Source of the DNA: a virus
Lineage: Duplodnaviria; Heunggongvirae; Uroviricota; Caudoviricetes
Virus record (IMG/VR): IMGVR_UViG_3300029008_000041
Direction: 5' to 3' (one strand)
DNA length: 4,258 bases
The notes below the pieces were generated by a model, which was not told the origin of the DNA, did not search any database, and saw only the letters and a list, made by a program, of their open reading frames with translations. Positions within the stretch are counted from its first letter, which is position 1, and every line of letters begins with the position of its first letter. The translations under genes and the position numbers were made by a program. Below, piece after piece: positions 530-3,611 of the stretch.

Positions 530-685
530 TTACTCCTCAGGTTCGTAAGCTGTGAAGACAGCGACCTCCGTCTGGCCGGTTCGGATTCGTACCTCGCAGA
601 GGTCTTTCCTCGTTACCAGTGCCGTCACTATGACGGTTAAACAGATGACGATCAGGGCGATTAACATCGCCTTTTGCTGCTTCAT
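530..685 (-). CDS. hokD: Hok/Gef family type I toxin (51 aa)
   Basis: Translation MKQQKAMLIALIVICLTVIVTALVTRKDLCEVRIRTGQTEVAVFTAYEPEE shows the Hok/Gef hallmarks: an N-terminal transmembrane helix and the conserved TRKDLCEV..R.G..EVAVF.AYE core. From memory it matches E. coli HokD (RelF) and differs at about ten positions from Gef/HokC. SD AAGGAG sits 9 nt upstream of the ATG at 685-683. The symbol is from recall, not a search. Confidence 0.88.
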   Translation of the reverse strand: MKQQKAMLIALIVICLTVIVTALVTRKDLCEVRIRTGQTEVAVFTAYEPEE

Positions 686-742
686 AGCCTGCTTCTCCTT
701 GCCTTTCGGCACGTAAGAGGCTAACCTACATTTGTGAGACAT
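530..742 (-). CDS. mok: mok-like in-frame upstream reading frame overlapping hok (70 aa)
   Basis: ATG at 742-740 with SD GAGG 8 nt upstream; same frame and same stop as hok, which is how chromosomal mokB/mokC are annotated in E. coli. The leader AUGUCU...AGCCUCUUAC...GCAAGGAGAAG closely resembles the plasmid R1 mok/hok leader as I recall it. Confidence 0.45.
   Translation of the reverse strand: MSHKCRLASYVPKGKEKQAMKQQKAMLIALIVICLTVIVTALVTRKDLCEVRIRTGQTEVAVFTAYEPEE
699..727 (+). promoter_or_regulatory. candidate sok antisense promoter
   Basis: Plus-strand TTGCCT (699-704), 17-nt spacer, TAACCT (722-727), inside the mok N-terminal codons. This is positionally equivalent to the R1 sok promoter (recalled as TTGCGC-17-TATCCT). 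Predicted start near 734. Confidence 0.4.
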
Positions 743-805
743 AGATTGGGCCTCAGATTAATGTTAAGCGTCTTGCAGGACGCGTAATGTTAACTGGGGC
801 TTTTC
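734..805 (+). ncRNA. sok: candidate Sok-like antisense RNA
   Basis: Plus-strand transcript antisense to the mok SD and start codon. It contains a long imperfect hairpin (761-790, one mismatch) followed by GGGGCUUUUCUCU. Both ends are approximate and inferred by analogy with R1 hok/sok. Confidence 0.35.
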
Positions 806-829
806 TCTATCTGCCTTTTGGTGTTCATG

Positions 830-855
830 CCTGAGGCAGATAGCCTCAAGCACCC
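830..855 (-). promoter_or_regulatory. hok mRNA 5' leader (tac/ucb-like stem-loop)
   Basis: Minus-strand GGGUGCUUGAGGCUAUCUGCCUCAGG forms the hairpin UGAGGC-(5 nt loop)-GCCUCA. A downstream GGCAGAUAG (815-807) can pair instead with CUAUCUGCC (843-835), giving mutually exclusive folds like those described for nascent R1 hok mRNA. Confidence 0.45.
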
Positions 856-1070: not shown

Positions 1071-1154
1071 TTACCCCCACCGACAAATAACATATACTAA
1101 AAAAGCGATAGCCATAGCAACGCCTGTAATTGCAAATGCTTCAGGCCAGTTCAT
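1071..1154 (-). CDS. candidate small hydrophobic peptide (27 aa), translationally coupled to the DUF551 gene
   Basis: Its ATG (1154-1152) overlaps the TGA stop of the DUF551 gene (1153-1151) in an ATGA arrangement. Translation MNWPEAFAITGVAMAIAFLVYVICRWG. No separate SD, consistent with coupling, but the ORF is very short. Confidence 0.3.
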   Translation of the reverse strand: MNWPEAFAITGVAMAIAFLVYVICRWG

Positions 1155-2020
1155 TGGCGCACCTCCTGCGGCGGTTCTGGTAGAGGCATCCAGTGTGATG
1201 GTATCCACGACGCACCAGGTATTATCCACCCATCATTAGCGTCAGGATGCCCCGGGATGTAAGTCGCCCATTTCATTCGCCAGTCACCTTTCCTGCCAAA
1301 ATCCCTGGCAACAAGAACGGCTGTTTTGGTATCCGGCATTCGCTCACTACAGCTTATCCAACTATCCGGAGTTACCGGATAGTTGCCCGATAGTGCATTC
1401 TGCTCCAGTGATGCTTTTACAAACCACGCTGCCTGAACTATAACGCCATGAATCCAGCGCAAATCAGCATCGCGATCTTTCTTTTTCATCTTTTCGCCAC
1501 TTAAGGCCTTGCTTATGTGGCTGCGTACCAGGTCTTCATGTAATTCCTTCGCCTCCTCAATGGTGAAACCACCAGGCAGAAGAGCCGGAGTTACCGGAGA
1601 GCTGGTTGACGCTTCCGGGATTTTCCGAAAATTATTGGTTGACGAATCTTTATTTTCCCGAAAGTTTCCGGACTGAAGCATGGCTTCGCGGCAATCGTTC
1701 CAGCCTGTAGCGTATGCAGTCGCTTTGCTGCTGCCTTCAACTGGCGCATCCTGCCAATACATTTCTTCCGGCACTATCGGCGCTGGAGGGGCGGCAAATA
1801 GATATCCGCCAAAGTCAGGAAGCTCTCTAATGGCCTGTACGAATTTTTGTTTGCCTACGTCAACCCCTAATGGGTAATGAGCTATAATCTTTGCCACCGG
1901 CTCTGCTTCCAGCGATGCCAGCGCAATCCGTGCCAGTTCCATTTGTTCACCACGGGTAAGCCCGTTTTCAAGCGGATTTTTAATGAACAATTCAATACGT
2001 TCTTTGGTAATAGTGGTCAT
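1151..2020 (-). CDS. DUF551 domain-containing prophage protein (289 aa)
   Basis: ATG at 2020 with SD AAGGAG 6 nt upstream. The C-terminal region ...WISCSERMPD..AVLVA...W..ATYIPG...GWIIPGASWIPSHWMPLPEPP matches the DUF551 signature as I recall it from lambdoid-prophage proteins. N-terminal domain not recognised. Confidence 0.85.
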   Translation of the reverse strand: MTTITKERIELFIKNPLENGLTRGEQMELARIALASLEAEPVAKIIAHYPLGVDVGKQKFVQAIRELPDFGGYLFAAPPAPIVPEEMYWQDAPVEGSSKATAYATGWNDCREAMLQSGNFRENKDSSTNNFRKIPEASTSSPVTPALLPGGFTIEEAKELHEDLVRSHISKALSGEKMKKKDRDADLRWIHGVIVQAAWFVKASLEQNALSGNYPVTPDSWISCSERMPDTKTAVLVARDFGRKGDWRMKWATYIPGHPDANDGWIIPGASWIPSHWMPLPEPPQEVRQ

Positions 2021-2809: not shown

Positions 2810-3128
2810 TTATTCAGTTCTGGATTTTGTCGCCCTGCGTATCCGCGCTTTCGCGTTACGCTCAATCTGAATTAACTTTTCTATATTTTTCCGCCTTTCC
2901 TGTTCCTCCTGGCGCAATAGCCTTACATCATCTGCCAGTCTGGTTTCTCTTTTCGCCACAGAGAGCATCCAGTCAAACGGCTCCACAACTGCACCGCAGA
3001 TTTTACAGCGGACCTGACGCTCTTTTTCGTCAACCCGAACAGAGGCGTGATGGCAATATGGTCTTTCCGATGGCTCATAAAGAAAATTAACCTGATTACG
3101 AGGGTTGGATTTGCCCCTATATTTCCAT
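2810..3128 (-). pseudogene. Zn-finger-like small regulatory protein gene, apparently disrupted by a 1-nt frameshift just after its start codon
   Basis: A strong SD AAGGAGAGGAGC precedes ATG 3128-3126, but that frame stops after three codons (ATG GAA ATA TAG). The +1 frame is open for 121 codons (3175 down to 2813) with no ATG before codon 70 and encodes ...YCHHASVRVDEKERQVRCKICGAVVEPFDWMLSVAKRETRLADDVRLLRQEEQERRKNIEKLIQIERNAKARIRRATKSRTE. Removing one A from the AAA run after the ATG joins start and ORF into about 105 codons. Confidence 0.4.
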
Positions 3129-3185
3129 GCTCCTCTCCTTTGATGCGAATGCCAGCGGTAATTGAAGCCTGATAGCTAATTTCAC

Positions 3186-3611
3186 TCACAGTACCGCCTC
3201 CTGAATATTACCCTGATAGAAAGCCAGTACACGCTGCATAGCTTCACTCTTCCGGCACTCGCGACAGATTATGTTTAGGCGCCTGTCGTAGCGGCGTATT
3301 TCGCCGTCTGGTAACGACCAGATAAGGTCCGGATCAACCACAGATGTTTTTTTCTTCAGCTTTGCCCTTGAGAGTTTTTTGCGGGCGTTTTGCCAGTCCT
3401 TACGAGCCTGTTCAGACGGGAATAACCCGTAACCAGAGTTGTATACATCGCCACTGGCAACCAGCTCTCTGGCGAGAACGCTCATCAGATATCTTGTCGC
3501 ACCTGTTTTCGCTTCCAGTTGTCGTAACGTCTCACGCCCACTCTGGCGTACGAGTTCAACAACCTGCCCTTTAATTTTTTCCCGCTCTTCTTGTGTAAAA
3601 ACTTTTGCCAC
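3186..3611 (-). CDS. hypothetical prophage protein (141 aa), possible DNA-binding or replication-associated
   Basis: GTG start at 3611-3609 with a strong SD AGGAGG 4 nt upstream. Translation MAKVFTQEEREKIKGQVVELVRQSGRETLRQLEAKTGATRYLMSVLARELVASG...IICRECRKSEAMQRVLAFYQGNIQEAVL. It sits immediately downstream of the replication-like gene. Family not recognised. Confidence 0.75.
   Translation of the reverse strand: MAKVFTQEEREKIKGQVVELVRQSGRETLRQLEAKTGATRYLMSVLARELVASGDVYNSGYGLFPSEQARKDWQNARKKLSRAKLKKKTSVVDPDLIWSLPDGEIRRYDRRLNIICRECRKSEAMQRVLAFYQGNIQEAVL

What the first reader, a model, noticed from the sequence alone, without database searches (positions are those of the whole stretch)
2810..3189. 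Zn-finger-like gene with intact RBS and start codon but a +1 frame offset to its open reading frame
The strong SD and ATG at 3128 lead into a stop after three codons, while the +1 frame carries a long, protein-like ORF with a C-H-H...C-x2-C motif and a charged helical tail. One extra A in the AAA run right after the ATG explains it. This could be a recent inactivating mutation, a homopolymer sequencing error, or, less likely, a translational frameshift. The ORF-track call in this region (2923..3189, GTG start) is in a third frame and looks less protein-like.
Basis: seen in the sequence. Interest (0 to 1): 0.5.

Follow-up and report, generated by a model that had tools for sequence, protein, structure and literature searches.

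The report
Deletion-broken prophage zinc-ribbon gene (pseudogene)
A small accessory prophage gene of unknown function has lost 38 bases just after its start codon, so only three codons can be translated; RefSeq already flags this version as a pseudogene, so the finding is ordinary.

Summary
On the minus strand a strong Shine-Dalgarno sequence and an ATG (3128) run into TAG after three codons (M-E-I-stop). The neighbouring frame stays open to 2810 and encodes a C-x-H...C-x2-C zinc ribbon followed by a long charged helix. The proposed cause, one extra A, is wrong. ATG-GAA-ATA is identical in all intact homologues. Directly after it, 52 nt of the intact gene (codons 4-20 plus one base) are replaced by 14 unrelated nt (window 3119-3106), a net loss of 38 nt. 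This breaks the frame and removes a motif conserved across the family (ELSNIVxFP). It is not a sequencing error: the same version is in 11 complete E. coli genomes, 8 further contigs (some from the same strains), 3 viral contigs and 1 metagenome contig. It is rare, because about 1,679 of 5,426 complete E. coli genomes carry the gene and almost all have the intact 118-aa form. PGAP already annotates this version as a pseudogene missing its N-terminus. The 88-aa ORF at 2923-3189 is a by-product of the deletion. The intact protein belongs to PHROG 1621, function unknown. I found no support for programmed frameshifting. Verdict: an ordinary, already-annotated pseudogene.

The parts
3129..3140 (-). 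Shine-Dalgarno-rich stretch AAGGAGAGGAGC directly upstream of the start codon, intact and conserved
   Evidence: Read directly and located. Almost invariant in alignment A1 across intact versions.
3117..3128 (-). Residual reading frame ATG GAA ATA TAG (M-E-I-stop). The first three codons are ancestral. The TAG is created by the first three bases of the 14-nt filler.
   Evidence: Intact homologues read ATG GAA ATA AAA CCA....
3106..3119 (-). 14-nt filler TAGGGGCAAATCCA standing in for 52 nt (codons 4-20 plus the first base of codon 21) of the intact gene. This is the lesion (net -38 nt).
   Evidence: One search gives the exact boundaries and lengths. One search found no microhomology and no templated copy in the flanking loci. 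In some searches every copy found elsewhere has the same context.
2810..3105 (-). Out-of-frame remnant of the PHROG 1621 gene (residues about 21-118 plus the stop): zinc ribbon (Cys 3055-3053, His 3049-3047, Cys 3007-3005, Cys 2998-2996) and a long C-terminal helix. PGAP's pseudogene call corresponds to window 3112-2810.
   Evidence: translation; 312/316 nt identity to ArgO145 gp17, identical amino acids, substitutions on the third codon position. PGAP pseudogene calls; conserved ligands and predicted helix.
2923..3189 (-). 88-aa GTG ORF from the ORF track, not a gene. The deletion joined a 24-codon open stretch after the DUF977 stop to an out-of-frame open stretch inside the zinc-ribbon gene.
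   Evidence: in the intact 813R8 version the GTG frame ends after 27 codons, and the distal part is a separate 61-aa off-frame ORF; no family match; the substitution pattern fits the other frame.
3186..3611 (-). Upstream neighbour, a DUF977 / LygF (Ren-like) protein. Its stop overlaps the decoy GTG at 3189.
   Evidence: searches (PF06163, E = 3e-29; phrog_142), and the annotations.

Best explanation
This is a pseudogene of a small accessory prophage gene: 118 aa, PHROG 1621, with a zinc ribbon and a long helix. One illegitimate deletion-insertion event replaced 52 nt right after codon 3 with 14 unrelated nt. The ribosome-binding site and ATG still work on paper, but translation ends at a TAG after Met-Glu-Ile. 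The remaining 97 codons lie in another frame with no usable start codon before the zinc ribbon. The lost segment also encoded the family's conserved N-terminal motif. The broken version then travelled with its gene module (DUF977, pseudogene, 70-aa gene, DUF4014, 87-aa gene, DUF551) among Rac-like and lambdoid prophages of E. coli. Shown here: the lesion, its boundaries, its recurrence, its rarity and the true coding frame. Inferred: that no functional protein is made, and that it was a single event.
For: A 14-nt-for-52-nt replacement sits between flanks that match the intact versions closely. Intact 118-119-aa homologues are annotated at the same position in four phages and in SK1144. The intact gene is present, essentially full length, in 1,679 of 5,426 complete E. 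coli genomes. The window's version occurs in exactly 11 complete genomes. PGAP labels it a pseudogene, 'incomplete; missing N-terminus'. The 402-nt stretch is identical in the window and three carrier genomes, and all 15 carrier loci fetched share the same junction. Purifying selection acts on the zinc-ribbon frame: 34/40 differences at codon position 3. The deleted residues include invariant E6, E8, F15 and P16. The first canonical start codon in the remnant frame is the GTG at 2986, downstream of all four zinc ligands.
Against: The remnant shows no further decay. It has no extra stops, and its amino-acid sequence is identical to ArgO145 gp17. That is also what continued use of the remnant would look like. 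A 58-aa helix-only ORF (2810-2986, GTG start) holds the most conserved part of the family, and some annotators have called it as a protein (P0084). No expression data were available.
Confidence: 0.93

Rival explanations
1. Single-base homopolymer insertion (an extra A in ATGGAAATA) or a homopolymer sequencing error.
For: Removing one A does restore an open frame on paper.
Against: ATGGAAATA is invariant in every intact homologue. The real difference is 52 nt against 14 nt. The identical version recurs in 11 complete genomes and many other independent assemblies. The 'repaired' N-terminus YRGKSNP occurs in none of the 26 homologues I retrieved, which include the closest matches.
Confidence: 0.01
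2. Programmed +1 ribosomal frameshift at AUA-UAG, or reinitiation after the 3-codon ORF. Either would yield MEIRGKSNPRNQ..., an N-terminally shortened zinc-ribbon protein.
For: A stop codon directly after a rare AUA codon, with a strong SD nearby, loosely recalls the prfB arrangement. The remnant is undecayed. The predicted product would keep the whole zinc ribbon.
Against: tRNA-Ile reading AUA cannot re-pair with the +1 codon UAU at any of the three positions (established codon-anticodon rules). The SD lies about 15 nt from the site rather than the 3 nt seen in prfB. There is no significant local structure (z = -0.79) and no Rfam element. The arrangement is a rare derived version, not a conserved feature. 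The product would lack the invariant N-terminal motif. The remnant frame has no start codon, canonical or near-cognate, within about 140 nt of the stop.
Confidence: 0.02
3. The remnant is still used as a truncated gene. The 58-aa helix-only ORF (GTG 2986 to 2810) would be translated and keep part of the function, or act as a dominant-negative partner of intact copies in co-resident prophages.
For: The ORF exists. It contains the family's most conserved block, KLIQIERNAKARIR. It falls entirely within the predicted long helix. Some genomes hold 2-5 copies of the gene. GenBank annotators have called it (P0084).
Against: No convincing SD precedes the GTG. The lack of decay is equally explained by a young lesion. 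PGAP does not call it. There is no evidence of selection specific to carriers, since all carrier copies checked are identical.
Confidence: 0.04

Closest known systems
PHROG 1621 (function unknown), e.g. Escherichia phage ArgO145 gp17 (YP_009907882.1) and E. coli WP_000403785.1
   Same: The remnant at 3105-2810 encodes residues about 21-118. It is identical in amino-acid sequence to ArgO145 gp17 and 312/316 identical in DNA. The SD and first three codons are the same. In Rac-like prophages it sits in the same place, downstream of the DUF977 gene.
   Different: Codons 4-20 are replaced by 14 unrelated nt, so the frame is broken and the conserved N-terminal motif is lost.
The RefSeq (PGAP) pseudogene at this position, e.g. 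G2583_RS10020 in E. coli O55:H7 CB9615 and C5099_RS14520 in RM14723
   Same: The sequence is identical over the 402 nt compared. It is annotated 'hypothetical protein; incomplete; missing N-terminus'.
   Different: None at the gene itself. The window's flanks, especially the replication gene, best match a metagenome scaffold (L010, 99.84%) rather than these genomes.
TFIIB-type zinc ribbon (Pfam PF08271, PDB 1pft)
   Same: A short beta-ribbon with paired metal ligands. It gives the best, though weak, matches by sequence (E = 1.4e-4, 21.8 bits) and by fold (E = 0.4, 27 columns).
   Different: Both scores are below threshold (the Pfam cut-off is 29 bits). The ligand pattern is C-x-H...C-x2-C rather than C-x2-C...C-x2-C. 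A 55-residue helix is attached. This is a resemblance only.
prfB (RF2) programmed +1 frameshift site
   Same: An in-frame stop soon after an SD-like sequence, with the productive ORF in the +1 frame.
   Different: There is no slippery P-site codon (AUA to UAU does not re-pair). The SD spacing is wrong. The site is not conserved among homologues and exists only in a rare derived version.

Membership tests
PHROG 1621 (phage protein, unknown function) | Significant full-length match to the family profile | tested here: met
   The intact orthologue ArgO145 gp17 scores E = 1.5e-56 over residues 1-117. The window remnant has the same amino-acid sequence as residues 22-118 of that protein.
PHROG 1621 (phage protein, unknown function) | Intact reading frame with the conserved N-terminal motif (E6, E8, F15, P16) and the C38/H40/C54/C57 ligands | tested here: not met
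   The four ligands are present in the remnant. The N-terminal motif is deleted and the frame is broken. The window therefore holds a pseudogene of the family, not a functional member.
Pseudogene (PGAP sense) | Homology to an intact protein family, plus a frame disruption or truncation relative to it | tested here: met
   Searches show the lesion. In some searches PGAP flags the identical sequence as pseudo.
Programmed ribosomal frameshift site | A slippery sequence that allows tRNA re-pairing in the new frame | tested here: not met
   The sequence is AUA UAG G. The +1 codon UAU shares no pairing position with the AUA decoder (plus the established rule).
Programmed ribosomal frameshift site | The frameshift arrangement is conserved among homologues | tested here: not met
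   About 99% of E. coli copies and all distant homologues have one uninterrupted frame.
Programmed ribosomal frameshift site | A stimulatory element (correctly spaced SD or a downstream structure) | tested here: not met
   Fold z-score -0.79. No Rfam match at the site.
Zn_Ribbon_TF (PF08271) | Score at or above the Pfam gathering threshold (29 bits) | tested here: not met
   21.8 and 21.5 bits. Foldseek's best hit is 1pft at E = 0.4.

The most novel reading that the evidence does not exclude
The undecayed remnant is still expressed. Either low-level +1 frameshifting or reinitiation at AUA-UAG gives a zinc-ribbon protein without its N-terminal docking motif, or the 58-aa helix is made from the GTG at 2986. 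The truncated product would then modulate intact PHROG 1621 copies encoded by co-resident prophages.
Probability: 0.04. Interest if true: 0.35.

Novelty: already known. Interest (0 to 1): 0.08.

Why it matters
It matters little biologically. One accessory prophage gene of unknown function is dead in a minority prophage module, and RefSeq already records this. The practical value is for annotation. The 88-aa ORF at 2923-3189 and the 58-aa ORF at 2810-2986, both of which appear in some public annotations, are by-products of the deletion. The obvious one-base 'repair' also gives a protein that never existed. The spread of the broken version across prophages with different immunity regions shows that the gene is dispensable for keeping and exchanging this module.

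Tried and rejected
1. I looked for an intact gene that uses the 14-nt segment in frame, as an alternative N-terminal module. One scan each of genome contigs (0 hits), viral contigs (3 hits) and metagenome contigs (1 hit) found only the same broken context. None of the 26 homologues retrieved has a YRGKSNP N-terminus.
2. I looked for a templated source or microhomology for the filler in the window and in all fetched loci. I found none apart from one chance-level 2-mismatch site in L020. The origin of the 14 nt is unexplained.
3. I tried to assign a function to the intact protein. Pfam gave only sub-threshold zinc-ribbon hits. NCBIfam and PADLOC gave nothing. A PDB profile search gave nothing. 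The AlphaFold2 model (pLDDT 73.8) had no significant Foldseek hit in the PDB. Two literature searches found nothing relevant.
4. I looked for RNA signals of recoding. There was no Rfam match at the site and no unusual structure.
5. I searched for the exact source genome. No complete E. coli genome matches the whole window better than 97.5%. The best match is an ENA metagenome scaffold at 99.84%.

Full report
**What is in the sequence.** The genes of this window lie on the minus strand. Downstream of a DUF977/LygF gene (3611-3186; PF06163, E = 3e-29) the minus strand reads AAGGAGAGGAGC ATG GAA ATA TAG. The ATG is at 3128-3126 and the TAG at 3119-3117. The neighbouring frame is open down to the TAA at 2812-2810. 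It encodes ...YRGKSNPRNQVNFLYEPSERPYCHHASVRVDEKERQVRCKICGAVVEPFDWMLSVAKRETRLADDVRLLRQEEQERRKNIEKLIQIERNAKARIRRATKSRTE. An 88-aa GTG ORF (2923-3189) occupies the third frame.

**What the lesion really is.** Four phages annotate an intact gene of 118-119 aa at the homologous position: vB_EcoS-813R8, ArgO145, vB_EcoM-Ro157c2YLVW and vB_EcoS-689R5. E. coli SK1144 does the same. The protein begins MEIKPEDELSNIVLFPVKEDDPRNQVNFLYEPSERPYCHH....
- In the DNA alignment, ATGGAAATA and the upstream SD are essentially invariant, so the AAA run does not contain an extra base.
- Immediately after ATA, the window has 14 nt (TAGGGGCAAATCCA, 3119-3106). The intact versions have 52 nt there (AAACCAGAGG...GAGGATG), which is codons 4-20 plus the first base of codon 21. 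The net change is -38 nt.
- The first three bases of the filler create the TAG.
- Downstream, the window matches ArgO145 at 312 of 316 bases, and the encoded amino acids are identical.
- I found no microhomology at the breakpoints and no templated source for the filler.

**Which frame is the gene.** Against five intact versions, 34 of 40 nucleotide differences fall on codon position 3 of the zinc-ribbon frame. That gives 35 synonymous and 4 non-synonymous codon changes. In 813R8, which has the same DUF977 stop/GTG overlap, the GTG frame closes after 27 codons. The distal part of the window's 88-aa ORF exists there only as a separate off-frame 61-aa ORF.

**Not an error, but rare.**
- A 101-nt query across the junction finds the window's version, full length and 100% identical, in exactly 11 complete E. 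coli genomes. These are several O55:H7 strains (including CB9615, RM12579, DEC5A, DEC5D and TB182A), two dog isolates, one pig isolate and others. About 1,400 genomes match in two pieces 38 nt further apart, which is the intact form.
- With the intact gene as query, 1,679 of 5,426 genomes carry an essentially full-length copy. The truncated O55:H7 form ranks last.
- The 402-nt stretch is identical in the window and three carrier genomes.
- All eight contigs holding the window's 289-aa DUF551 protein carry the same junction. Three of these come from strains also among the complete-genome carrier loci. So do three IMG/VR contigs and one metagenome contig.
- The carriers have at least three different immunity and replication modules. 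The broken version therefore travels with its module (DUF977, pseudogene, 70-aa gene, DUF4014, 87-aa gene, DUF551) by recombination.
- PGAP already annotates it as 'hypothetical protein; incomplete; missing N-terminus', at a position equal to window 3112-2810.

**What was lost.** The intact protein belongs to PHROG 1621, function unknown (E = 1.5e-56). Homologues occur across Enterobacterales, including Escherichia, Salmonella, Klebsiella, Kluyvera, Yokenella, Serratia, Erwinia, Pantoea and Pluralibacter. In a 33-sequence alignment the invariant positions are:
- E6, E8, F15 and P16 (motif ELSNIVxFP);
- C38, H40, C54 and C57;
- a C-terminal block, KLIQIERNAKARIR.

An AlphaFold2 model (mean pLDDT 73.8) gives a low-confidence N-terminus, a two-hairpin ribbon and a single helix spanning residues 63-117. 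No solved structure matches significantly; the best hit is the TFIIB zinc ribbon at E = 0.4. Pfam Zn_Ribbon_TF is below threshold. NCBIfam and PADLOC give nothing.

By inference only, the intact protein is probably a small metal-binding adaptor that dimerises through the helix. It would use the N-terminal linear motif and the basic C-terminus to bind a partner or nucleic acid. The deletion removes the N-terminal motif, so even a frame-restoring event would not recreate the normal protein.

**Recoding considered.**
- A +1 shift at AUA-UAG would yield MEIRGKSNPRNQ....
- The AUA decoder cannot re-pair with UAU, and the SD is not at prfB-like spacing.
- The local RNA folds no better than shuffled controls (z = -0.79), and Rfam has no match at the site.
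- The arrangement is a rare derived version rather than a conserved feature.
- The first canonical start in the remnant frame is the GTG at 2986, downstream of all four zinc ligands. It would give only a 58-aa helix.
- I cannot exclude low-level expression of that peptide without expression data, but nothing supports it.

**Verdict.** This is an ordinary pseudogene that is already annotated in RefSeq. A 52-to-14-nt replacement in a small accessory prophage gene created it.

Noticed in passing
window 530-855 (minus strand): A hok/gef type I toxin gene: the 70-aa ORF at 530-742 matches PF01848 at E = 3e-23, and RefSeq calls the 51-aa hokD in relatives. Its sok antitoxin/leader region gives an Rfam RF01794 match at 680-855 (121.7 bits). 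A GC-rich hairpin followed by a T-run at about 440-470 looks like its terminator.
   Followed up: partly
window 1151-2020 (minus strand): The window has one continuous 289-aa ORF ending in a DUF551 domain. GenBank annotations call it as one protein. In the carrier genomes checked, RefSeq PGAP splits the corresponding locus into a 'missing C-terminus' pseudogene plus a 112-aa DUF551 protein. I did not check whether those loci are identical to the window here, nor which annotation is right.
   Followed up: no
window 3128-3185 (minus strand) and L001 1616-2029: The frame of the ATG stays open upstream to a GTG right after the DUF977 stop. Many public annotations of the intact gene use extended starts of 132-137 aa (for example P0009, with 3,282 member sequences). 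Distant homologues all begin at the ATG-equivalent Met, so the extended forms are probably start-site miscalls.
   Followed up: partly
Homologue list, (P0035, P0043, P0052-P0055, P0057 and others): Many truncated or partial versions of this protein are recorded in Shigella sonnei and S. flexneri. The family may be disrupted repeatedly and independently.
   Followed up: no
L006 5417-6101 (E. coli RM14723): In this carrier an IS481-family transposase is inserted between the small 34-aa ORF and hokD of the same module, another sign of decay in this prophage.
   Followed up: no
Phage ArgO145 (L002) against Rac-like prophages (L001, L008): The intact gene sits in two different contexts. In Stx-type phages it lies among the ead/Ea22-like early-left genes. 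In Rac-like prophages it lies right after the replication and DUF977 genes. It behaves as a mobile accessory cassette.
   Followed up: partly
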